DNA of 64,000 nucleotides from Escherichia coli (GTDB taxonomy: Bacteria > Pseudomonadota > Gammaproteobacteria > Enterobacterales > Enterobacteriaceae). The stretch is taken from the NCBI RefSeq assembly GCF_013315695.1, contig NZ_CP054353.1. One strand, given 5' to 3'. The notes under the pieces are model-generated. The model did not search any database, was not told the origin of the DNA, and saw only the letters and a program-made list of their open reading frames with translations. Positions 4,424 through 20,897 of this stretch are shown one piece after another (positions within the stretch are counted from its first letter, which is position 1; each line of letters starts with the position of its first letter). The translations under genes were made by a program, and so were the position numbers.

Positions 4424-4914
4424 TCATGAGTCTTTTGAATGAAGTTCAGAAATTCATTGAAGCCCATCCGGGCTGTACTTCCGGAGACATTGCGGATGCT
4501 TTTGCTGGTTACTCACGGCAGCGCGTTCTGCAGTCAGCAAGCAAGTTACGTCAGAGTGGGCGTGTGGCTCACCGTTGTGAAGGAGATACACGCAGACATT
4601 TCCCACGCCTGACTGAGAGAGCGCAGGATCCGGAACCACAACCAGTTCGTGAAACCAGACCTGTGCGCAATTTCTATGTCGGCACTAACGATCCCCGTGT
4701 GATTTTGTGCCTGACCCGCCAGGCTGAAGAACTGGAGTCCAGGGGCTTATACCGTCGTGCTGCAACGGTGTGGATGGCGGCATTCCGTGAAAGCCACTCC
4801 CAGCCAGAACGAAACAATTTTCTGGCACGTCGTGAGCGGTGCTTACGGAAAAGCAGCAAGCGCGCTGCATCGGGTGAAGAGTGGTATCTGTCAGGGAATT
4901 TCGTGGGGGCTTAA
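4420..4914 (+). CDS. Hypothetical protein with PerC/Pch-like C-terminal motif
   Basis: 164 aa; C-terminal LESRGLYRRAATVWMAAF...RRERCL resembles the PerC-family GLWRRAA..W...RR..C signature; ATGA-coupled to neighbours. Confidence 0.45.
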   Translation: MIMSLLNEVQKFIEAHPGCTSGDIADAFAGYSRQRVLQSASKLRQSGRVAHRCEGDTRRHFPRLTERAQDPEPQPVRETRPVRNFYVGTNDPRVILCLTRQAEELESRGLYRRAATVWMAAFRESHSQPERNNFLARRERCLRKSSKRAASGEEWYLSGNFVGA

Positions 4915-5567
4915 TGAGTAATAAATATTGCCAGGCGCTGGTGGAACTGCGGAACAAACCAGCCCATGAACTGAAGGAAGTGGGCGATCAGTGGCGCACG
5001 CCGGACAACATTTTCTGGGGAATTAACACCCTGTTTGGCCCGTTTGTTCTGGATCTGTTCACTGACGGTGATAACGCCAAATGTGCTGCGTATTACACTG
5101 CGGAAGACAACGCGCTGGCGCATGACTGGTCTGAACGTCTTGCGGAGCTTAAAGGTGCTGCCTTTGGTAATCCCCCGTACAGCCGCGCCAGTCAGCATGA
5201 GGGGCAATACATCACCGGCATGCGTTACATCATGAAACATGCCAGTGCCATGCGTGATAAAGGCGGGCGCTATGTTTTCCTGATCAAAGCTGCCACCAGC
5301 GAAGTGTGGTGGCCGGAAGATGCAGATCATATTGCTTTTATTCGCGGGCGTATTGGTTTTGAACTGCCTGCCTGGTTTATCCCGAAAGACGAAAAGCAGG
5401 TGCCAACAGGTGCTTTCTTCGCTGGTGCTATTGCTGTTTTCGACAAGACCTGGAAGGGACCGGCAATCAGCTACATAGGGCGCGATGAACTTGAGGCATG
5501 TGGTGAGGCGTTTCTGGCGCAGGTTCGCCAGCAGGCGGAAAAACTGGTCAGGGAGATGGCGGCATGA
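4914..5567 (+). CDS. Phage-type DNA N6-adenine methyltransferase (Dam family)
   Basis: 217 aa from ATG 4914 (TAATG overlap); catalytic NPPY motif (AAFGNPPYS); typical lambdoid nin-region gene. Confidence 0.8.
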   Translation: MSNKYCQALVELRNKPAHELKEVGDQWRTPDNIFWGINTLFGPFVLDLFTDGDNAKCAAYYTAEDNALAHDWSERLAELKGAAFGNPPYSRASQHEGQYITGMRYIMKHASAMRDKGGRYVFLIKAATSEVWWPEDADHIAFIRGRIGFELPAWFIPKDEKQVPTGAFFAGAIAVFDKTWKGPAISYIGRDELEACGEAFLAQVRQQAEKLVREMAA

Positions 5568-7261: not shown

Positions 7262-8257
7262 GTGACTGTGAGAGCACTACTGACCCCTGAAATTGCCCCG
7301 CGTATGGGGATCGTATTGTTCAGGCCAGGTTCAGAGCTGATGCCCCTGTTTATGCAGGGGCGTGTCCTGCTGGAGCCTGAGCCGGAGCGTTATTCATCTT
7401 TCGCCAGTGGTGCCGTTCCGGCGGCATCACAACCGCTGGCGGATGATCCTGCCGTTCGGGCCGTGTTCCGCCATGAGGCAGTGATCCGTCGTGCTGGTGG
7501 CGTGGAATGTCTTGAAAGCTGGTTACTTCGTGAAAAAGGCTGCCAGTGGCCTCATTCCGGATGGCACAGCGAGAACATGACCACAATGCGACACGCTCCG
7601 GGTGCAATCCGTCTGTGCTGGCACTGCGATAACCAGCTGCGCGATCAGTTCACGGAACGGCTGGAATCAATGGCAACGGATAACTGTGCCCGCTGGGTGT
7701 TGTCTGTTGTGCGTCGGGATCTCGGTTTTGATGACAGTCACGTTGTGACAATGCCGGAACTGTGCTGGTGGCTGATTCGTAATGACCTGGCGGATGCCTT
7801 ACCGGAAAGTGCAGCCCGTAAGGCACTGAGATTACCGAAGCCTGTTGTGCCGTCTGTCACCCGGGAAAGTGACCTTGTGCCTTCGGTTCCTGCCACCAGC
7901 ATCATCCAGGATAAAGCGAAAAAGGTGCTGGCGCTGAAAGTGGATCCGGAGTCGCCGGAGTCTTTTATGTTACGCCCCAAACGTCGCCGCTGGGTTAATG
8001 AAAAGTACACGCGCTGGGTTAAGACGCAGCCGTGTGCATGTTGTGGAAAGCCTGCTGATGATCCCCACCACCTGATAGGCCACGGTCAGGGGGGAATGGG
8101 TACAAAAGCGCATGACCTCTTCGTGCTGCCTTTGTGCAGAAAGCATCACGACGAGCTGCATGCGGATACCGTGGCATTTGAAGAGAAGTATGGCTCCCAG
8201 CTGGAGCTGATATTTCGTTTTATCGATCGTGCGCTGGCAATAGGCGTGCTGGCCTGA
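7262..8257 (+). CDS. DUF968-family prophage protein (YdfU-like) with C-terminal Cys/His cluster
   Basis: 331 aa; C-terminal ...TQPCACCGKPADDPHHLIGHGQGGMGTKAHDLFVLPLCRKHHDELH; common in Rac/Qin-type nin regions. Confidence 0.6.
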   Translation: MTVRALLTPEIAPRMGIVLFRPGSELMPLFMQGRVLLEPEPERYSSFASGAVPAASQPLADDPAVRAVFRHEAVIRRAGGVECLESWLLREKGCQWPHSGWHSENMTTMRHAPGAIRLCWHCDNQLRDQFTERLESMATDNCARWVLSVVRRDLGFDDSHVVTMPELCWWLIRNDLADALPESAARKALRLPKPVVPSVTRESDLVPSVPATSIIQDKAKKVLALKVDPESPESFMLRPKRRRWVNEKYTRWVKTQPCACCGKPADDPHHLIGHGQGGMGTKAHDLFVLPLCRKHHDELHADTVAFEEKYGSQLELIFRFIDRALAIGVLA

Positions 8258-8274
8258 TTTTGTGGAGAAAGTTG

Positions 8275-8646
8275 ATGCGTGATATTCAAATGGTTCTTGA
8301 ACGTTGGGGGGCATGGGTGGCAAATAATCACGAGGATGTGGAATGGTCATCTGTTGCTGCAGGTTTTAAGGGATTAATTCCTTCGAAAGTAAAATCCCGC
8401 CCGCAATGTAGCGATGACGATGGCCTGATCATTAGCTCTGCGATGACAGTTCTTAAGAAAAAGGAACCGTATCAATACGAATTACTGGAAATGTATTATG
8501 TGTATGGGGTTACATTACGGGTGTTGGGGGTAAAACTGGGGATATCACTTAATCAGGTTGTTATCAGACTGCAGAAAGCTGAAGGGTTTATTGACGGTTG
8601 TCTGGCAATGTTGGGGGTATCTTTAGAAATTGATTGTTACATATAG
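8275..8646 (+). CDS. Late-gene antiterminator Q (QuuD-like)
   Basis: N-terminus MRDIQMVLERWGAWVANNHEDVEWSS matches the QuuD/DLP12-type Q family; sits directly upstream of the late region; GGAG RBS before ATG 8275. Confidence 0.75.
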   Translation: MRDIQMVLERWGAWVANNHEDVEWSSVAAGFKGLIPSKVKSRPQCSDDDGLIISSAMTVLKKKEPYQYELLEMYYVYGVTLRVLGVKLGISLNQVVIRLQKAEGFIDGCLAMLGVSLEIDCYI

Positions 8647-8721
8647 TAATAAATTCAATCAAAGTAAATAATCATATTTTATTATAACCTCCTGATGATA
8701 CCTGTTCATTGGGAGGTTATT

Positions 8722-9339
8722 ATGGATAAAAATGTAGAGCATGTATTAGTTGATGCAATTGAAAATAAGCAATCTTTAACAGTCGTTTACTTAGGAGGGA
8801 GCCAGCCCGGAACATTAAGGAATATTTCTCCGATTAGTATAAATGGGGATAAATTGCGGGCAAGATGCCATAGTTCTGGAGCAGTAAAGGTTTTCAATCT
8901 TGGGAAAATACAGTTACCCAGTGACTCCTGCGCGGTATCTATGCACTATGGAGATTTAGAAGTTAAAGCTTATGAGACGATGCAGAGCGTAAATGACAAC
9001 TTTCATGCCCTTTATCCTGAAGGACGATGGGGTGTTGATTTTAATGAGCATCGCTTTGCTTTATTTGATTTTTTTAAAAACGGGAAACGAAAAAAAACGG
9101 CATTTATGGCAATTGAGTTCAGGGAAAGAGATGAAGAGAAAATAATAACAGGTGTAACAATTGATATTGGTATATCTGGAACAGTGATTTCTGAGAAGTC
9201 CCGAATCCCAAAAAGACGACCATGGGTAGTGGTTGGTCCCGAACACGGAGAATACAGTACTTATTCAACTTTGGACAAGGCTGCTACAGCGTTTTTTGAG
9301 AGGCTTTCGTTGATAGCATCCGGCCTGGAAGATAATTGA
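8722..9339 (+). CDS. Hypothetical moron protein (205 aa), unknown function, AT-rich
   Basis: Strong RBS GGGAGG 5 nt before ATG 8722; no recognisable motif, no signal peptide; followed by a terminator; lies between Q and the tRNA block. Confidence 0.6.
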   Translation: MDKNVEHVLVDAIENKQSLTVVYLGGSQPGTLRNISPISINGDKLRARCHSSGAVKVFNLGKIQLPSDSCAVSMHYGDLEVKAYETMQSVNDNFHALYPEGRWGVDFNEHRFALFDFFKNGKRKKTAFMAIEFRERDEEKIITGVTIDIGISGTVISEKSRIPKRRPWVVVGPEHGEYSTYSTLDKAATAFFERLSLIASGLEDN

Positions 9340-9468
9340 TTTTATGTTTGGTATTCAGAGTTCGCCGTGCTTAAGAAAGTCAAGATTCTAAAAATACTGA
9401 ATGAGCTACTTGTGTTATAACAAAAATGCTATTAGTGTGTTAAGAGTGGTTACTTCGCCACACAACTT

Positions 9469-9493
9469 AAACCCGCCACTGAGCGGGTTTTTT
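9469..9493 (+). terminator. Rho-independent terminator downstream of the moron gene
   Basis: AAACCCGC-CACTGA-GCGGGTTT hairpin followed by a T-run. Confidence 0.6.
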
Positions 9494-9617
9494 GTACCTG
9501 TAAACTTGGTGCAGTACAGTAAACACGCTGGTGGTCGTGAATACTGGCTTTTTATCTTGCTGGCTTTTTAGACAAGAGTTATTGGTATGTCACGTTAACC
9601 GGAAAGGGTAAAAAGAC

Positions 9618-9815
9618 ATGCTGAAACAGCAGGATATGACAGAAACCGCCAGAGTTGTGTTTGATGAATTAAGCGTTACCGAACCGGCGACAGTCGGGGA
9701 GATTGCGCAGAATACTTACCTTTCACGCGAACGCTGCCAGTTAATACTGACCCAGCTTGTTATGGCGGGTCTGGCAGACTATCAGTGCGGTTGTTACAGA
9801 CGCCTTCAGTCCTGA
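9618..9815 (+). CDS. Small hypothetical protein (65 aa), possible winged-helix regulator
   Basis: ORF with AAAGGGTAAAAAG region before the ATG; helix-rich sequence GEIAQNTYLSRERCQLILTQLVMAGLA; no confident family. Confidence 0.35.
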   Translation: MLKQQDMTETARVVFDELSVTEPATVGEIAQNTYLSRERCQLILTQLVMAGLADYQCGCYRRLQS

Positions 9816-15438: not shown

Positions 15439-15576
15439 GTGTTTGATTTTAGCAAACTGATTCGGGAGATTCGAGTGATGGCTGAAAAATTATCCACCTG
15501 GAAGTTCATTCTTATCTGGCTGGTGTTTGTGATTATGGCCTCCGGTTATTTCATCGGTCAGATACGCTGGTGGTGA
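15439..15576 (+). CDS. Small hypothetical membrane protein (45 aa, GTG start) between endolysin and Rz
   Basis: AAGGAG RBS 6 nt before GTG 15439; hydrophobic core WKFILIWLVFVIMASGYFIG; stop 1 nt before the Rz start. Confidence 0.3.
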   Translation: MFDFSKLIREIRVMAEKLSTWKFILIWLVFVIMASGYFIGQIRWW

Positions 15577-15577
15577 A

Positions 15578-16015
15578 ATGAACCGCGTACTGTGCGTGGT
15601 CATCATTGCCCTGCTGGTGGCCTGTGGTGCGCTTAGTCTGGGGCTGAATCATTACCGTGATAACGCCATGACCTACAAAGAGCAGCGCGATAAAGCCACA
15701 TCCATCATCGCTGATATGCAGAAGCGTCAACGTGATGTAGCAGAACTCGACGCCAGATACACAAAGGAGCTTGCTGATGCTAACGCGACTATCGAAAGTC
15801 TCCGTGCTGATGTTTCTGCTGGTCGTAAGCGCCTGCAAGTCGCCGCCACCTGTGCAAAGTCAACGACCGGAGCCAGCAGCATGGGCGATGGAGAAAGCCC
15901 AAGACTTACAGCAGATGCTGAACTCAATTATTACCGTCTCCGAAGTGGAATCGACAAGATAACCGCGCAGGTTAACTACCTGCAGGAATACATCAGGACG
16001 CAATGCCTGAAATAA
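15578..16015 (+). CDS. Rz i-spanin
   Basis: 145 aa; N-terminal TM then coiled-coil; embedded Rz1 in the +1 frame. Confidence 0.8.
   Translation: MNRVLCVVIIALLVACGALSLGLNHYRDNAMTYKEQRDKATSIIADMQKRQRDVAELDARYTKELADANATIESLRADVSAGRKRLQVAATCAKSTTGASSMGDGESPRLTADAELNYYRLRSGIDKITAQVNYLQEYIRTQCLK
15771..15962 (+). CDS. Rz1 o-spanin lipoprotein (embedded in Rz)
   Basis: Lipobox LLVVSAC followed by a Pro-rich stretch KSPPPVQSQRPEP; wholly inside Rz in another frame. Confidence 0.7.
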   Translation: MLMLTRLSKVSVLMFLLVVSACKSPPPVQSQRPEPAAWAMEKAQDLQQMLNSIITVSEVESTR

Positions 16016-16216
16016 TTTTTTTGCAAATCACAAAGTCAATTTAATGAGCCTCGCGATGCGGGGCTTTTTGCAATAAATGCGTACCGCAACGCATGTTTTT
16101 TACACCGAACCTGCCCCTTTGGAATGGGCCTTTGAGGATACCAGTTAGTGCTGGCGAGCCTCGGTGGGCTGGTTTCCTATGCGGCAAAGGTTCATTTCAA
16201 ATGGTAGGTAAACGTT

Positions 16217-16738
16217 ATGAATATCGTGCCACTTAATTACAAAGGTGAAATTGTCAGTTTCAACACTGATGGTTGGATCAACGTCACAGGTGTTGCTGAG
16301 AGATTTGGAAAACGCATTGATAACTGGATGCGTTTGGCAGAAACGCTTGAATACGTTCGTGCTTTAGACGAAGCGTTGACCGGGAAAGAATCTCAAATTT
16401 TACATCCCTCACAATCGAGGTATGTAAAAACCAGCAAGGCACGAAAGGACAGGGGTGGTGGTACGTGGCTACATCCAAAACTTTCAGTTGCATTTGCCCG
16501 TTGGTGTGATGCTCGTTTTGCTGTGTGGTGCGACCTGCACATTGATAGTCTGCTTCGCGGTGAACTGACTGAGCAGCAGAAATATGAGCAAGCATGTCGC
16601 ATTCGCGATGACCGGAAATCAAAAGCCAGCAATGGGGCAAGAGAGATGGCTCGCTGGCGATGGGATAAGCCGGTTATTGAAGCAAATGTTGAGTACTGGC
16701 GCGAGCAACTGCAGTTGACTCTCGATATCGCGTGCTGA
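16217..16738 (+). CDS. KilA-N domain protein (second copy in this prophage)
   Basis: 173 aa; GGTWLHPKLSVAFARWCDARFAVWCDLHI is the KilA-N core. Confidence 0.55.
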   Translation: MNIVPLNYKGEIVSFNTDGWINVTGVAERFGKRIDNWMRLAETLEYVRALDEALTGKESQILHPSQSRYVKTSKARKDRGGGTWLHPKLSVAFARWCDARFAVWCDLHIDSLLRGELTEQQKYEQACRIRDDRKSKASNGAREMARWRWDKPVIEANVEYWREQLQLTLDIAC

Positions 16739-17446
16739 TGGCAAACGCAAAACTGCGTTATCGGAAAAATCAAAGCATTACGAGAACTGAGCAACGGCTA
16801 TCCATTACAAAGCCCATCTACGGGTGGGCTTGATAATGAAACCGGAATTTATTCTTGGCAACCAGTTACGGCAGTACCACGAAACAACCCAAGCCAGTAA
16901 GTGGGGAAATAACACTGGCAGCCACTGAAAGATGAAGCTCCTGCCTTAAGGCAAAAAAGATTCTTTGTGGTGGCGGACTGATGGAAAGACATCGGTTATT
17001 GCAGAGGCCATTCAATGAGTGGTCTCGACAATGGCTTATACCCTACACGGGATAACTTAACTGATATCCCTTTTAAAGGATAAAGGTATTCAAGCCTGAC
17101 ACATCATGCGCTGTATCGTCGCCGTATTCCTGCATTAACAGAGACCGCAGCCCGACAGGGAGACTCCTCTGCGCGAGTGTGCGGGGATAATCAAAAACGA
17201 TACACACCGGGGTTTACCGCGTTAACGGAGCGCGGCGTTGTCCCCTCATAGTCGCCTGTCCGGTGCGATGGTGGAAGAAACCGGATGTTTATCACTATTA
17301 ATTGATGACACAGAAATGGATTCATTGAATTTCAGCACGTTTTTGTATTCGTGTTATTGAACATCTGTTTATTTTACTTTTAACATATTGATAATAAAAA
17401 GAGCTGTAAATCTTTAGATGAGTCGATTTTGTCCGGGGAAGTTCAA

Positions 17447-17587
17447 ATGGATTTTATGCTGACGGTTTCTGGTGTGGTTATCCTGTCCATTGCTTATACT
17501 GCAGATAAATATGGCTGCCATTTGTTATCACGTATTGGCGCTTATTGTTCGTTGATGCTGATTTTCTCGTCGCTTTTTTTTGAGTAA
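17447..17587 (+). CDS. Small hydrophobic peptide (46 aa), candidate only
   Basis: MDFMLTVSGVVILSIAYTADKYGCHLLSRIGAYCSLMLIFSSLFFE; AT-rich island; convergent with the RHH gene; weak RBS. Confidence 0.2.
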   Translation: MDFMLTVSGVVILSIAYTADKYGCHLLSRIGAYCSLMLIFSSLFFE

Positions 17588-17719
17588 GTTATATTAATTA
17601 TAACAAATAATTTTCTGTGTTATTTTTTCAGGCTATCCCGTCAGAGGGGAAGCCTGTACTGCCGGGGAGCGAATGGAAAACTGATGTGTCCGGTAACTGC
17701 GTGTTCTGTGAACACCATG

Positions 17720-17905
17720 TTACTTAATTATGTAATTCATACCCGAACTCTCTGTTGACAGCCTTCTTCTGCAGGCTTCAATAACCCACGCTGAAAAGTT
17801 TCCTGAACCTTTCAGATCAAGAGCGATGTTAATTTGTTCAATCATCTGGTTTGGAAATCGGATGTTGCGGGTTGTTGTTCTGCGGGTTCTGTTCTTTGAT
17901 GACAT
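17720..17905 (-). CDS. Ribbon-helix-helix (CopG/Arc-like) DNA-binding protein
   Basis: 61 aa; RNIRFPNQMIEQINIALDLKGSGNFSAWVIEACRRRL fits the beta-strand/helix/helix RHH pattern; AT-rich promoter-like region upstream (17906-18060). Confidence 0.5.
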   Translation of the reverse strand: MSSKNRTRRTTTRNIRFPNQMIEQINIALDLKGSGNFSAWVIEACRRRLSTESSGMNYIIK

Positions 17906-18112
17906 AATGTTTCCCCATATTCAGTGTTGCTGATTTGTATTATCTGAAGTTGCTTTTACGTTAATTTGATGCAGATCAATTAATACGATACCTGCGTCAT
18001 AATTGATTATTTCTCGTGGTTTGATGGCGTACACACATGTTGTGATAAACCTTATATAGATGATAATCATTATCATTTTCGTGGGTCCTTTCCGGCGATC
18101 CGACCGGTTACG

Positions 18113-18124
18113 GGGCGGCGACCT
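18113..18124 (+). other. cosN cohesive-end site (lambda-type)
   Basis: ACGGGGCGGCGACCTCGCGGATTTTCACTATTTATGAAAATTTTCCGG matches the lambda cos region (GGGCGGCGACCT 12-nt cohesive end, then TCGCGGGTTTTCGCTATTTATGAAAATTTTCCGG) just upstream of Nu1. Confidence 0.7.
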
Positions 18125-18308
18125 CGCGGATTTTCACTATTTATGAAAATTTTCCGGGATCCATGTCCGGTTTCTCTGCAAGTTAACCATATGAAAAATA
18201 TAAAAACATGCTTTCCATGAACCGGGCATGCGCAAAAAATAGACACTAAAACCGGACATGACCGGTTTTGTTGTGATTGTGAGGTGAGAGTTTTTTGCGA
18301 GGTGAGGA

Positions 18309-18818
18309 GTGGCTACGCAGACTGAAGTTGCCAGGCATTTAAGTCTGACCGATCGCCAGCTTCGCAGATTGCAGAAATTGCCGGGTGCCCCGATATCGAA
18401 TAAGCGAGGGCAACTGGATCTGGATGCCTGGCGCGATTTTTACATATCGTATCTGAGAAGAAGTAAAAACGATGTGCCTGATGGCGATAGCGAAGACGAC
18501 TATGAGGAGAAATTGCTTATTGCCAGATGGGAACTGACAGCAGAACAGGCTGTTACACAGCAGTTAAAAAATGAGGTGTCAAAAGGAAAACTTATTGACA
18601 CCGGGTTCTGTATTTTTGCCCTCAGCAAGCTGGCAATGGCGTTATCCAGTACGCTTGATTCCATCCCTTTATCCATGCAGCGACAGTTTCCTGATTTAAC
18701 ACCGCGCCATCTTGACCATCTGAAAACCCTTATTGCGAAGGGGGCAAATCAGTGTGCGCGGGCGGGGGATAAATTACCGGATTTACTCGATGAATATATC
18801 AGAGCAACAACTGAATAA
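18309..18818 (+). CDS. nu1: Terminase small subunit (lambda Nu1 homolog)
   Basis: C-terminal half ...TGFCIFALSKLAMALSSTLDSIPLSMQRQFPDLTPRHLDHLK...LLDEYI parallels lambda Nu1; GTG start downstream of cos. Confidence 0.85.
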   Translation: MATQTEVARHLSLTDRQLRRLQKLPGAPISNKRGQLDLDAWRDFYISYLRRSKNDVPDGDSEDDYEEKLLIARWELTAEQAVTQQLKNEVSKGKLIDTGFCIFALSKLAMALSSTLDSIPLSMQRQFPDLTPRHLDHLKTLIAKGANQCARAGDKLPDLLDEYIRATTE

Positions 18819-20707
18819 TATGATGAGTGCTGTCACAACAGCATTACAGCCCCTGATAAGGGCATTGCCGGTGACGCCAGTTGAATGGGCTGATCAAAAT
18901 TATTATCTGCCTAAAGAATCTTCATATGGTGAGGGAGAATGGAAAACGCTGCCGTTCCAGATCGCCATCATGAACAGCATGGGGAATGATCAGATCCGGA
19001 CTGTTAATCTGATTAAATCTGCCCGTGTTGGCTATACAAAGATGTTGCTGGGGGTGGTCGGGTATTTTATTGAGCATAAATCCCGAAACAGTCTGCTTTT
19101 TCAGCCCACGGATTCTGCCGCTGAAGATTTTATGAAGTCTCACGTGGAGGCGACGATTCGGGATGTGCCATGTCTGAAAGACCTTTCTCCATGGCTGGGG
19201 CGTAAACATCGTGACAATACTCTCACGCTGAAACGCTTTTCATCGGGTGTGGGCTTCTGGTGCCTGGGCGGCGCTGCCGCCAAAAACTACCGTGAAAAAT
19301 CCGTGGACGTGGTCTGCTATGACGAACTTTCCTCGTTCGAACCGGATGTCGAAAAAGAGGGTTCGCCAACCCTGCTTGGGGATAAACGTATTGAGGGCTC
19401 TGTATGGCCCAAATCCATTCGCGGCTCGACGCCTAAAATCAAAGGCACCTGCCAGATCGAAAAAGCGGCCAACGAGTCGGCGCATTTCATGCGTTTTTAT
19501 GTGCCCTGCCCGCACTGTGGGGAGGCGCAGTATCTGAAATTTGGCGATGAGTCCACGCCTTTTGGCCTTAAATGGGAGAAGGACAGCCCCGAAAGCGTTT
19601 TCTACCTCTGTGAACATCATGGCTGCGTGATCCATCAGTCTGAGCTTGACCAGAGCAACGGGCGGTGGATCTGTGAAAACACGGGGATGTGGACCCGCGA
19701 CGGTCTGACGTTTTTCAGCGCTGCGGATAATGAAATTCCGCCGCCGCGCTCCATCACATTCCATATCTGGACGGCGTACAGTCCGTTCACCACCTGGGTA
19801 CAGATTGTCTATGACTGGCTGGATGCACTGAAAGATCCCAACGGCCTGAAAACCTTTGTGAACACCACGCTGGGCGAGACCTGGGAAGAGGCCGTGGGCG
19901 AAAAACTCGATCACCAGGTGCTGATGGATAAGGTTGTGCGTTACACGGCTGCGGTGCCTTCCCGGGTGGTTTATCTGACGGCGGGCATTGACTCGCAGCG
20001 AAACCGTTTTGAGATGTATGTCTGGGGATGGGCTCCGGGAGAGGAAGCCTTTCTGGTGGATAAAATCATCATTATGGGGCGTCCCGATGAGGAAGAGACG
20101 CTGTTACGTGTGGATGTGGCGATCAACAAAAAATACCGCCATGCAGACGGAACCGAAATGACCATTTCCCGTGTCTGCTGGGACACCGGGGGGAATTGTC
20201 TATCAGAGGTCAAAAAAACACGGTGTTTTCCGGGTGCTGCCGGTAAAAGGTGCATCTGTTTATGGCAAGCCGGTGATCACCATGCCAAAAACCCGCAATC
20301 AGCGGGGCGTGTATCTGTGCGAAGTGGGGACGGACACCGCAAAAGAAATTCTCTATGCCCGTATGAAAGCCGATCCCACGCCTGCGGATGAAGCCACGTC
20401 GTATGCCATCCGTTTTCCTGATGATCCGGAGATTTTTTCGCAGACAGAGGCGCAGCAACTGGTGGCGGAAGAGCTTGTGGAGAAGTGGGAAAAAGGAAAG
20501 ATGCGTCTGCTGTGGGATAACAAAAAGCGGCGTAACGAAGCGCTGGACTGCCTGGTGTATGCCTACGCGGCATTACGTGTGTCCGTGCAACGCTGGCAGC
20601 TTGATCTGGCTGTACTGGCAAAATCCCGGGAAGAAGAGACGACCCGGCCAACCCTTAAAGAACTGGCAGCGAAGCTGTCCGGAGGAGTGAATGGTTACAG
20701 TCGCTGA
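18790..20707 (+). CDS. A: Terminase large subunit (lambda gpA homolog) with an apparent +1 frameshift in a G6 run near 20188-20193
   Basis: Two overlapping ORFs (18733..20391 and 20171..20707) together align with lambda gpA (...ISRVCWDTGG | IVYQRSKKHGVFRV...); the frame changes at CCGGGGGGAATT. Confidence 0.8.
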
Positions 20708-20897
20708 ACTGCAGGCGCTGCGTCAGGCGCGCCTTGATTTATTAACCGGTAAACGGGTGGTGTCTGTCCAGAAAGATGGTCGCAGAATTGAATATACGGC
20801 AGCTTCTCTGGATGAGCTTAACCGGGCGATCAATGATGCGGAGTCGGTACTGGGGACAACCCGCCGTCGCCGTCGTCCGCTGGGAGTGAGGTTATGA
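20691..20897 (+). CDS. W: Head-tail joining protein gpW
   Basis: 68 aa; LTGKRVVSVQKDGRRIEYTAASLDELNRAI parallels lambda W. Confidence 0.8.
   Translation: MVTVAELQALRQARLDLLTGKRVVSVQKDGRRIEYTAASLDELNRAINDAESVLGTTRRRRRPLGVRL

What the first reader, a model, noticed from the sequence alone, without database searches (positions are those of the whole stretch)
17300..18060. AT-rich island next to cos carrying an RHH protein and a convergent small hydrophobic peptide
Between the second KilA-N gene and cos lies about 1.4 kb with no large ORF; the last roughly 750 bp are strongly AT-rich. It contains a 61-aa ribbon-helix-helix protein on the minus strand (17720..17905) with AT-rich promoter-like DNA upstream, and a convergent 46-aa hydrophobic peptide ORF (17447..17587). 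An RHH regulator beside a small membrane peptide resembles toxin-antitoxin or other addiction-type modules and prophage repressors of moron expression. This is the slot where lambda carries bor. I cannot assign a function.
Basis: partly seen in the sequence, partly recalled or inferred. Interest (0 to 1): 0.55.

Follow-up and report, generated by a model that had tools for sequence, protein, structure and literature searches.

The report
YlcI gene and small-peptide cassette beside cos
The AT-rich stretch next to the phage packaging site holds a copy of ylcI/ynfO, a small DNA-binding gene of unknown function that phage lambda also carries, plus an E. coli-only mini membrane-protein gene swapped in beside it; this is ordinary lambdoid prophage mosaicism, and nothing shows it to be a toxin-antitoxin pair.

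Summary
Window 17300-18060 is 37% GC against 52% for the window. Both ORFs exist and are annotated in RefSeq.

The 46-aa peptide (17447..17587) is a plausible real gene. It has a Shine-Dalgarno sequence and two hydrophobic segments, and it is intact in an 80%-identical allele with dN/dS about 0.3. It is E. coli-only and matches no family. It sits in a ~440-bp AT-rich cassette that other prophages lack or replace with unrelated genes (lambda p79, K-12 ybcW).

The toxin-antitoxin reading is not supported: the genes are convergent, only about 8% of ylcI copies have the peptide, and neither protein hits a TA or defence family. The function of both proteins is still unknown. My working model is a lysogen-expressed RHH regulator beside a late-strand moron. 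Interest is low.

The parts
17300..18060 (.). AT-rich island (37% GC) at the right end of a lambdoid prophage
   Evidence: Composition profile and window-wide comparison.
17288..17735 (.). Mosaic cassette of about 440 bp. It carries the peptide gene, its AT-rich upstream block, the inter-ORF hairpins and the last ~11 codons of ylcI. It is absent from a related contig.
   Evidence: In ENA contig L022 a lambda-type ylcI abuts the GC-rich block directly. All 73 IMG/VR copies of the peptide that have enough flanking sequence sit beside a ylcI ending in ...MNYIIK.
17320..17400 (+). Conserved AT-rich block upstream of the peptide ORF; candidate promoter or regulatory region, with GATAAT at 17390-17395
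   Evidence: The core, roughly 17367-17400, is fully identical between the window and the SHP24 allele, and scattered substitutions occur further 5', although the ORF is only ~80% identical. No consensus sigma-70 hit on the + strand. The promoter role is inferred.
17447..17587 (+). 46-aa small hydrophobic protein gene (RefSeq WP_000347013.1), with two hydrophobic segments (residues ~3-17 and ~30-45) and a GGGGA Shine-Dalgarno sequence 7 nt upstream
   Evidence: The ORF is kept in the 80%-identical allele, dN/dS 0.31 against 0.6-0.74 in the off-frames. It is found only in E. coli and has no Pfam family.
17629..17656 (.). Inter-ORF hairpin CAGGCTATCCC-N6-GGGGAAGCCTG
   Evidence: region z-score about -3.3 on both strands. 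Not conserved in the SHP24 allele.
17693..17723 (.). Hairpin overlapping the ylcI stop codon. On the + strand it is followed by a U-rich tail, making it a weak terminator-like site for the peptide transcript.
   Evidence: (terminator-like hit at 17701-17715, + strand).
17720..17905 (-). ylcI/ynfO-family gene, 61 aa; DUF3950; probable ribbon-helix-helix DNA-binding protein
   Evidence: Pfam PF13132 E 1.4e-18. NCBIfam NF041551 35.2 bits against a cutoff of 30. phrog_949 E 9e-32. Structure evidence.
17906..18082 (.). Spacer between ylcI and cosQ, highly conserved among lambda-type phages. It contains an inverted repeat at 17975-18007 and a palindrome at 18060-18076.
   Evidence: Nearly identical across window, lambda, DLP12, Qin, SHP24 and ev099. 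Repeats. Absent from the HNH-type context.
18083..18089 (+). cosQ (GGGTCCT)
   Evidence: Aligned with the right end of lambda. The identification as cosQ rests on established lambda knowledge (PMC6739421 describes the cosQ/cosN/cosB layout).
18113..18124 (+). cosN cohesive-end sequence GGGCGGCGACCT
   Evidence: Read directly from the sequence. The lambda right end stops at ...GGTTACG immediately before it.

Best explanation
The island is the ordinary right-end segment of a lambdoid prophage. It is made of two independent pieces.

(1) ylcI/ynfO (17720..17905, minus strand) encodes a small DUF3950 protein that most likely folds as a ribbon-helix-helix dimer and binds DNA through its N-terminal basic arm and beta-ribbon. 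It is the conserved last gene before cos or the terminase genes. It is the only gene here that points against the Q-dependent late operon. It must therefore be transcribed on its own, most plausibly in the lysogen, as a small repressor-type regulator whose target is unknown.

(2) A ~440-bp AT-rich cassette (about 17288-17735) has been recombined in next to it. The junction lies inside the 3' end of ylcI. The cassette carries a 46-aa two-segment membrane peptide on the late-operon strand. This is a moron-like accessory gene. It would be transcribed at least by the late transcript that crosses this slot, and possibly from its own conserved AT-rich upstream block.

The two genes are neighbours by mosaic recombination, not an obligate pair. 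Because they are convergent and only 132 bp apart, their transcripts may interfere with each other, as reported for ybcW-ylcI in K-12.

Shown here: family membership, position, distribution, cassette boundaries, and conservation of both ORFs. Inferred: RHH dimer and DNA binding, expression in the lysogen, the peptide's membrane location, and any transcriptional interference.
For: Family: Pfam DUF3950 E 1.4e-18, NCBIfam YlcI_YnfO_N above its cutoff, phrog_949.

Lambda has an unannotated 64-aa homologue at 48109..48303(-), with a sequence identical to K-12 YlcI.

Same position and orientation in S88, O104, SHP24, an O157 prophage, DLP12, Qin and ev099. Present in 4173 of 5426 E. coli genomes.

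Every gene from Q (8297) to the KilA-N gene is on the + strand, and ylcI is the lone minus-strand gene.

In lambda the + strand of this slot belongs to the late transcript: CRISPRi on p79 is polar on essential late genes (PMC10695390). ybcW-ylcI is listed as a convergent excludon in K-12 RNA-seq (PMC12288877).

Distant homologues are likewise solitary, oppositely oriented genes in integrase-bearing elements (L009, L014, Pmp7).

Cassette: a contig with ylcI abutting the GC-rich block directly; AT composition; peptide ORF conserved with dN/dS 0.31; 73 of 73 viral contigs keep the same peptide-ylcI spacing.
Against: No experiment on any YlcI/YnfO protein was found.

No consensus promoter was found for either gene. 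No shared motif, and so no common auto-operator, lies upstream of ylcI in the lambda-type and HNH-type contexts.

The peptide test rests on one diverged allele pair with only 24 substitutions, and its translation is untested. The inter-ORF hairpins are not conserved in the SHP24 allele.
Confidence: 0.55

Rival explanations
1. Toxin-antitoxin or addiction module. The membrane peptide is a toxin, and YlcI is its RHH antitoxin or transcriptional repressor.
For: RHH is a common antitoxin DNA-binding fold, and several fold hits are antitoxins (ParD2, MazE9, CopA_SO, VapB12, AtaR). The peptide is small and hydrophobic. Wherever the peptide occurs, ylcI lies 129-136 bp away. A fully conserved AT-rich block upstream of the peptide could be an operator.
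Against: The genes are convergent, not a co-directional operon. ylcI has about 9500 copies, and fewer than ~800 have the peptide. The slot holds unrelated genes in lambda, DLP12 and Qin. No PADLOC, NCBIfam or PHROG toxin or antitoxin family hit clears significance. The peptide-ylcI linkage is explained by recent common ancestry of one cassette whose junction lies inside ylcI. The peptide has a net charge of about -1, unlike typical cationic pore-forming toxins (read from the sequence).
Confidence: 0.07
2. RNA-level (type I-like, excludon) control. In the lysogen the ylcI transcript runs on into the peptide gene as an antisense RNA and silences it. During lytic growth the antiterminated late transcript overrides ylcI. 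The protein function of YlcI is secondary.
For: Convergent genes 132 bp apart with no strong bidirectional terminator between them. In K-12, ybcW-ylcI is reported as a convergent excludon in at least 50% of RNA-seq samples (PMC12288877). The late transcript crosses this slot in lambda (PMC10695390).
Against: No transcript data exist for this locus. No Rfam match to a known antitoxin RNA. The YlcI protein is strongly conserved down to 33-50% identity in distant elements, so the protein itself is under selection. The intergenic hairpins are not conserved.
Confidence: 0.12
3. YlcI is a packaging-associated factor. It binds DNA next to cos or the terminase genes, or binds TerS itself. In this way it modulates cos cleavage or termination, or excludes competing phages and satellites.
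For: Invariant position as the gene nearest to cos, or nearest to the HNH-terS-terL cluster. The ylcI-cosQ spacer is almost invariant among lambda-type phages and contains palindromes. One satellite-like contig encodes a DUF3950 domain fused to the N-terminal DNA-binding domain of a small terminase (phrog_641 E 1.6e-17, Pfam Terminase_2 2.4e-6).
Against: Other distant homologues sit in contexts unrelated to packaging: next to cytochrome bd genes, and between a fimbrial operon and a type I R-M system. The gene is antisense to the packaging operon. Small cos fragments are understood to suffice for lambda packaging in cosmids (my own background knowledge, not tested here). The upstream DNA differs completely between the two terminase contexts. 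The fusion is a single metagenomic example.
Confidence: 0.1
4. The 46-aa ORF is not a gene. It is a chance ORF in AT-rich spacer DNA that annotation pipelines propagate, and only ylcI is functional.
For: An ORF of this length is not improbable by chance. No family, domain or homologue exists outside E. coli. Nearly all copies are at least 95% identical, so conservation carries little information. Some database variants are frameshifted.
Against: The ORF, its start codon, its Shine-Dalgarno sequence and both hydrophobic segments survive in an allele with ~20% nucleotide divergence. There, dN/dS is 0.31, while the other two frames are interrupted by stop codons.
Confidence: 0.16

Closest known systems
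YlcI (E. coli K-12 DLP12 prophage, b4589), which matches the unannotated 64-aa ORF of phage lambda at 48109..48303(-)
   Same: Same family (DUF3950 / NF041551). About 80% identity over residues 1-50. Same position (last gene before cos, divergent from the Nu1-type small terminase) and same orientation. The upstream DNA as far as cosQ is about 93% identical.
   Different: The C-terminal tail differs (STESSGMNYIIK against TSEKRAYTSIKSDEE), because the cassette junction lies inside the gene. The convergent neighbour is the 46-aa peptide instead of ybcW / lambda p79.
YnfO (E. coli K-12 Qin prophage, b4533)
   Same: Same family and the same cos-proximal, nohA-divergent position.
   Different: YnfO is 77 aa and is followed co-directionally by ydfO (DUF1398), not faced by a convergent small gene.
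Small phage and plasmid ribbon-helix-helix repressors (P22 Arc/Mnt, pSM19035 omega, CopG)
   Same: Size (~50-60 aa), predicted strand-helix-helix layout, basic N-terminal arm, and best structural matches.
   Different: No significant sequence or profile match to any RHH Pfam family. No operator has been identified. DNA binding is untested.
Accessory (moron) genes of the lambda lysis-to-cos interval: bor, p78 (DUF1398), p79/ybcW
   Same: Same variable slot between the spanin genes and ylcI. Non-essential in lambda (PMC10695390). The peptide cassette has deviant base composition and is absent from related genomes.
   Different: The peptide is unrelated in sequence to any of them. It lies on the late strand like p79, whereas bor and p78 are antisense. 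It is not known whether it is expressed in the lysogen.
Type I toxin peptides of E. coli prophages (Hok/Gef family such as HokD, and others)
   Same: Small hydrophobic peptide encoded in a prophage, with a possible overlapping antisense transcript.
   Different: Two short hydrophobic segments instead of one transmembrane helix. Net acidic charge. No match to Rfam antitoxin RNAs or to toxin families. Toxicity is untested.

Membership tests
YlcI/YnfO family (Pfam DUF3950 PF13132; NCBIfam NF041551) | Significant match to the Pfam DUF3950 model | tested here: met
   E 1.4e-18, residues 21-49 against model positions 1-29 of 30. 17 of 18 aligned relatives also match.
YlcI/YnfO family (Pfam DUF3950 PF13132; NCBIfam NF041551) | Score above the curated NCBIfam cutoff | tested here: met
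   35.2 bits against a cutoff of 30. RefSeq names the identical protein 'YlcI/YnfO family protein'.
YlcI/YnfO family (Pfam DUF3950 PF13132; NCBIfam NF041551) | Conserved core I-R-F ... N-F-S-x-W-V-x-x-A-C | tested here: met
   I15, R16, F37, V41 and C45 are invariant, and F17, W40 and A44 nearly invariant, in an 18-sequence alignment reaching down to 33% identity.
YlcI/YnfO family (Pfam DUF3950 PF13132; NCBIfam NF041551) | Synteny in lambdoid phages: last gene before cos/terminase, antisense to the late operon | tested here: met
   Seen in window, S88, lambda, DLP12, Qin, SHP24, O104, an O157 prophage and ev099.
Ribbon-helix-helix (Arc/MetJ/CopG) superfamily | Strand-helix-helix topology | tested here: inconclusive
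Ribbon-helix-helix (Arc/MetJ/CopG) superfamily | Sequence-profile match to an RHH family | tested here: not met
   Only DUF3950 is found by Pfam. There are only weak PHROG hits to HicB-like (E 0.012) and, for a relative, Arc-like repressors (E 7e-4). No PDB sequence relative.
Ribbon-helix-helix (Arc/MetJ/CopG) superfamily | Obligate dimer that binds DNA through a two-stranded beta-ribbon | not testable with these tools
   Needs purified protein (SEC-MALS, EMSA) or a solved structure.
Type II toxin-antitoxin module | Antitoxin and toxin genes co-directional in one operon | tested here: not met
   ylcI has no co-directional partner ORF. The peptide is convergent, 132 bp away.
Type II toxin-antitoxin module | The two partners co-occur across genomes | tested here: not met
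   ylcI is in 4173 genomes (~9500 places). The peptide is in 733 genomes and is contiguous with ylcI in 724. The linkage is one-sided and explained by a single young cassette.
Type II toxin-antitoxin module | Either protein matches a known toxin, antitoxin or defence family | tested here: not met
   No PADLOC hit. No NCBIfam or PHROG toxin family. The peptide has no Pfam family.
Type II toxin-antitoxin module | Toxicity of one partner, neutralised by the other | not testable with these tools
   Requires expression experiments.
Type I toxin-antitoxin (hydrophobic peptide plus antisense RNA) | Small hydrophobic membrane peptide | tested here: met
   GRAVY 1.11. Two hydrophobic segments are conserved in both alleles.
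Type I toxin-antitoxin (hydrophobic peptide plus antisense RNA) | Cognate antisense or antitoxin RNA | tested here: inconclusive
   No Rfam family matches 15500-19000. Overlap of the ylcI 3' UTR with the peptide gene is conceivable (K-12 ybcW-ylcI excludon, PMC12288877) but unmeasured here.
Moron (autonomous accessory cassette in a phage late region) | Present or absent between conserved flanks in related phages | tested here: met
   Contig L022 joins ylcI directly to the GC-rich block. Lambda, DLP12 and Qin carry other genes in the slot.
Moron (autonomous accessory cassette in a phage late region) | Base composition deviating from the flanks | tested here: met
   30-42% GC for the cassette's parts against 52% for the window.
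Moron (autonomous accessory cassette in a phage late region) | Own promoter and terminator | tested here: inconclusive
   A conserved AT-rich block with GATAAT lies upstream but gives no consensus promoter hit. There is a terminator-like hairpin at 17701-17715 (+) with a weak U tail.
Moron (autonomous accessory cassette in a phage late region) | Expression from the repressed prophage | not testable with these tools
   Needs RNA-seq of the lysogen.

The most novel reading that the evidence does not exclude
YlcI-family RHH proteins could be lysogen-expressed guardians of the packaging locus. Made from the lone antisense gene next to cos or terS, they would bind cos-proximal DNA or the small terminase of incoming lambdoid phages or satellites. 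Conversely, satellites may have captured the domain: one satellite-like contig fuses it to a TerS DNA-binding domain. In that picture the convergent late-strand peptide is a lytic-phase membrane effector, kept silent in the lysogen by ylcI antisense transcription.
Probability: 0.07. Interest if true: 0.6.

Novelty: already known. Interest (0 to 1): 0.2.

Why it matters
As a discovery it matters little. Both genes are already in RefSeq. The RHH gene belongs to a named family found in three quarters of complete E. coli genomes and in lambda itself.

The residual value is as a reminder that even lambda still carries a conserved protein gene of unknown function directly beside cos, and that the gene is left unannotated in the RefSeq lambda record. 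Its invariant position and antisense orientation make a cheap experiment attractive: delete it in lambda, then run ChIP or EMSA with the protein.

The 46-aa peptide is one more candidate for the catalogue of uncharacterised prophage small membrane proteins.

Tried and rejected
- **Known RNA families.** Rfam scan of 15500-19000 at permissive E-values returned only two chance eukaryotic hits. No known sRNA or antitoxin RNA is present.
- **Promoters.** The consensus scan found no hit for ylcI and none on the + strand upstream of the peptide. The two hits it did return (+ strand at 18040-18067, - strand at 17410-17382) are no more than shuffles give, and the + strand hit depends on an 8-bp insertion that lambda lacks.
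- **Shared operator upstream of ylcI.** I compared the lambda-type and HNH-type contexts. No shared 8-mers were found, and shared 7-mers were below the shuffle expectation.
- **Conserved RNA structure between the two ORFs.** The window folds better than shuffles (z about -3.3), but the hairpins are not conserved in the SHP24 allele.
- **GC-rich conserved block 17100-17290 as a structured RNA.** Rejected: z-scores -0.9 and -0.2.
- **Sequence relatives with solved structures.** None found with either the single sequence or the family profile.
- **Long 'fusion' homologues (142-205 aa) from the representative search.** These are read-through or frameshift artefacts of E. coli sequences. The exceptions are P0206 and P0223, which are genuine two-domain proteins.
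- **Rpp of E. coli PICIs as a relative.** Rejected: Rpp is a winged HTH protein (PMC6739421).
- **Listeria TerI as an analogue.** It is not located near cos and is not homologous.
- **Literature.** Searches by gene name, accession and peptide sequence found no functional study.
Full report
**What is there**

The window is a lambdoid, Stx-phage-like prophage. Positions 17280-18110 are 100% identical to E. coli S88, APEC O18 and many other genomes.

The S88 annotation places the finding at the end of the late lysis region. The order is:
- Q antiterminator (8297-8668)
- three tRNAs
- a SASA esterase
- holin, lysozyme and spanin
- a KilA-N gene (16217-16738)
- a 46-aa 'hypothetical protein' (17447-17587, +)
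- a 'YlcI/YnfO family protein' (17720-17905, -)
- the small terminase (from 18301)

Every gene from Q onward is on the + strand except ylcI.

The AT-richness is real. The island is 37.2% GC against a window mean of 52%, which places it in the lowest 0.13% of equal-sized windows.

cos is adjacent. cosQ GGGTCCT lies at 18083-18089 and the cohesive-end sequence GGGCGGCGACCT at 18113-18124. Both align with the two ends of lambda DNA.

**The 61-aa protein**

It matches Pfam DUF3950 (E 1.4e-18), NCBIfam NF041551 'YlcI_YnfO_N' above the curated cutoff, and phrog_949, whose function is unknown.

The gene is extremely common. It is found in 4173 of 5426 complete E. coli genomes, at about 9500 places and up to 13 per genome. 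It is also in 155 phage records, nearly all Escherichia lambdoid or Stx phages.

Phage lambda itself has a 64-aa homologue at 48109..48303 on the minus strand. NC_001416 does not annotate it, and its sequence is identical to K-12 YlcI. From about 17750 to cos the window is roughly 93% identical to the right end of lambda.

In DLP12 (ylcI), Qin (ynfO), SHP24, O104 and ev099 the gene has the same place and orientation. It is the last gene before cos, divergent from the Nu1-type small terminase.

In O157-type prophages and PPyecE it instead sits 41 bp from an HNH endonuclease gene that heads a different terminase cluster. There the DNA upstream of the ATG is unrelated. It is therefore the protein-coding unit that is conserved, not a fixed upstream control region. 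The two upstream regions share no k-mers beyond chance.

The family is small. Only 106 representatives at 50% identity exist among 1.84 billion proteins.

**Fold**

The sequence has the classic ribbon-helix-helix pattern: a basic arm (KNRTRRTTTR), a short strand (NIRFP), helix A, a G-S-G-N turn and helix B.

An AlphaFold model built on an 18-sequence alignment has mean pLDDT 75. It shows an extended segment followed by helices 19-32 and 37-55.

None of these scores is individually significant. No RHH Pfam family matches any member, and no solved relative exists by sequence. I accept RHH as the probable fold, not a demonstrated one.

**The 46-aa peptide**

It has a GGGGA Shine-Dalgarno sequence 7 nt before the ATG. 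It has two hydrophobic segments separated by the sequence ADKYG..LLSR.

It is found only in E. coli: 13 clusters among 5.8 billion proteins, with no Pfam family. It occurs in 733 of 5426 genomes, nearly all at 95% identity or more.

One allele, in strain SHP24, is 80% identical in DNA. It keeps the start codon, the reading frame and both hydrophobic segments. Between the two alleles dN/dS is 0.31, against pN/pS of 0.6-0.74 in the other two frames, and those frames contain stop codons.

This is modest support for a real small membrane-protein gene, resting on 24 substitutions. Translation is untested.

Part of the AT-rich block upstream (roughly 17367-17400) is identical between the two alleles. 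That suggests a constrained regulatory element, but no consensus promoter is detected.

**The two genes are not an obligate pair**

A metagenomic contig joins a lambda-type ylcI directly to the GC-rich block that lies left of 17288 in the window. The window's segment from about 17288 to 17735 is therefore an alternative cassette. It contains the AT-rich upstream block, the peptide, two hairpins and the last ~11 codons of ylcI.

In all 73 IMG/VR contigs with enough flanking sequence, the peptide is followed at 129-136 bp by a convergent ylcI with the same ...MNYIIK tail. Of these, 53 lie next to a lambda-type cosN and 17 do not.

The peptide's constant linkage to ylcI thus reflects one young cassette whose right junction lies inside ylcI. 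Most ylcI copies lack the cassette. Lambda has p79 and DLP12 has ybcW in the convergent slot. Qin and ev099 have a DUF1398 gene co-directional with ylcI.

Neither protein matches PADLOC or any toxin or antitoxin family. No known antitoxin RNA is present. The convergent arrangement is also not that of a type II operon. I therefore reject the toxin-antitoxin interpretation as unsupported, although only an expression experiment can exclude it.

**How it most likely works**

Established lambda biology holds that the Q-antiterminated late transcript runs from the lysis genes across cos into the head genes. A CRISPRi study supports this for the slot in question: a roadblock in p79 (+ strand, same slot) is polar on essential late genes, whereas bor and p78 on the other strand score as non-essential (PMC10695390). 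The peptide gene, being on the + strand, will therefore at least be transcribed late in lytic growth.

ylcI points the other way and needs its own promoter. In K-12 the ybcW-ylcI pair is reported as a convergent 'excludon' with overlapping transcripts in at least half of the RNA-seq samples (PMC12288877). ylcI is therefore transcribed from a cryptic, uninduced prophage.

Distant homologues show the same habit. In a satellite-like contig (integrase, primase), in a second integrase-bearing element and in the 10.7-kb Pasteurella element Pmp7, the DUF3950 gene is a solitary gene opposed to, or divergent from, a long unidirectional operon. Other homologues sit in unrelated chromosomal contexts.

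Together this fits a small RHH repressor-type regulator made in the integrated state, with an unknown target. Convergent-transcription interference with its + strand neighbour is a possible side effect. The steps from 'RHH-like, antisense, conserved' to 'lysogen-expressed DNA-binding regulator' are inference.

**Comparison with what is known, and novelty**

The RHH gene is a member of the named YlcI/YnfO family, and all tested membership criteria are met. The identical protein and the identical peptide are already RefSeq entries.

No functional study of the family was found. The finding is therefore a correct observation of an ordinary, already catalogued feature of lambdoid phages, with an interpretation that goes beyond the evidence.

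One lead is worth keeping. A satellite-like contig encodes DUF3950 fused to the N-terminal DNA-binding domain of a small terminase. Combined with the invariant cos/terS-proximal position, this leaves a small chance of a link to packaging.

Noticed in passing
lambda NC_001416 48109..48303 (-) = L003 3110..3304: The RefSeq lambda record does not annotate this 64-aa ORF. Its product is identical to K-12 YlcI and belongs to DUF3950. Other lambda-like records annotate it as a hypothetical protein.
   Followed up: yes
window 18821-20747 (ORFs 18733..20391 and 20171..20707): The large terminase gene is split by a frameshift and is flagged 'frameshifted' in S88 and in O104:H4 2009EL-2050. This prophage is probably unable to package DNA.
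   Followed up: partly
window 16868-17290: GC-rich block of ~420 bp with no ORF over 49 aa. It is conserved (88-95%) in O157 prophages, in SHP24 and in Shigella phage POCJ13. POCJ13 lacks ylcI and has a different terminase. There is no Rfam hit and no excess RNA folding (z -0.9 and -0.2). Its function is unknown.
   Followed up: partly
L009 4714-5103 (Logan SRR22184587 contig): A 129-aa protein that fuses a DUF3950 domain to the first ~54 residues of a small terminase (phrog_641 E 1.6e-17). It lies in a satellite-like element with an integrase and a primase-helicase, divergent from the primase operon.
   Followed up: partly
L103 (Pasteurella phage Pmp7, OR544138) 4853-5032 (+): A clear 59-aa DUF3950 ORF lies antisense under an annotated 224-aa 'transcriptional repressor' whose sequence looks like a spurious call. 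It is the only + strand gene besides the integrase in this 10.7-kb element.
   Followed up: partly
window 17921-18076 (-): A 51-aa ORF lies directly upstream of ylcI inside the conserved ylcI-cosQ spacer. It is 37 aa in lambda, annotated as a hypothetical protein in ev099, and read in frame with ylcI in some database entries. Window-versus-lambda differences look mostly non-synonymous, so it is probably not coding.
   Followed up: no
window 8241-9641: The only other region of the window as AT-rich as the island (minimum 36.7% GC). It covers the Q antiterminator gene and a WYL-domain protein gene just downstream of Q, the position where Stx phages carry stx.
   Followed up: no
window 17975-18007 and 18060-18076: A 13-nt inverted repeat (ATCAATTAATACG / CGTCATAATTGAT) and a perfect palindrome (ATGATAAT-C-ATTATCAT) lie in the spacer left of cosQ. 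The inverted repeat is invariant across lambda, DLP12, Qin, SHP24 and ev099; the palindrome is nearly so (one position varies). Their role (ylcI control, packaging, or neither) is unknown.
   Followed up: partly
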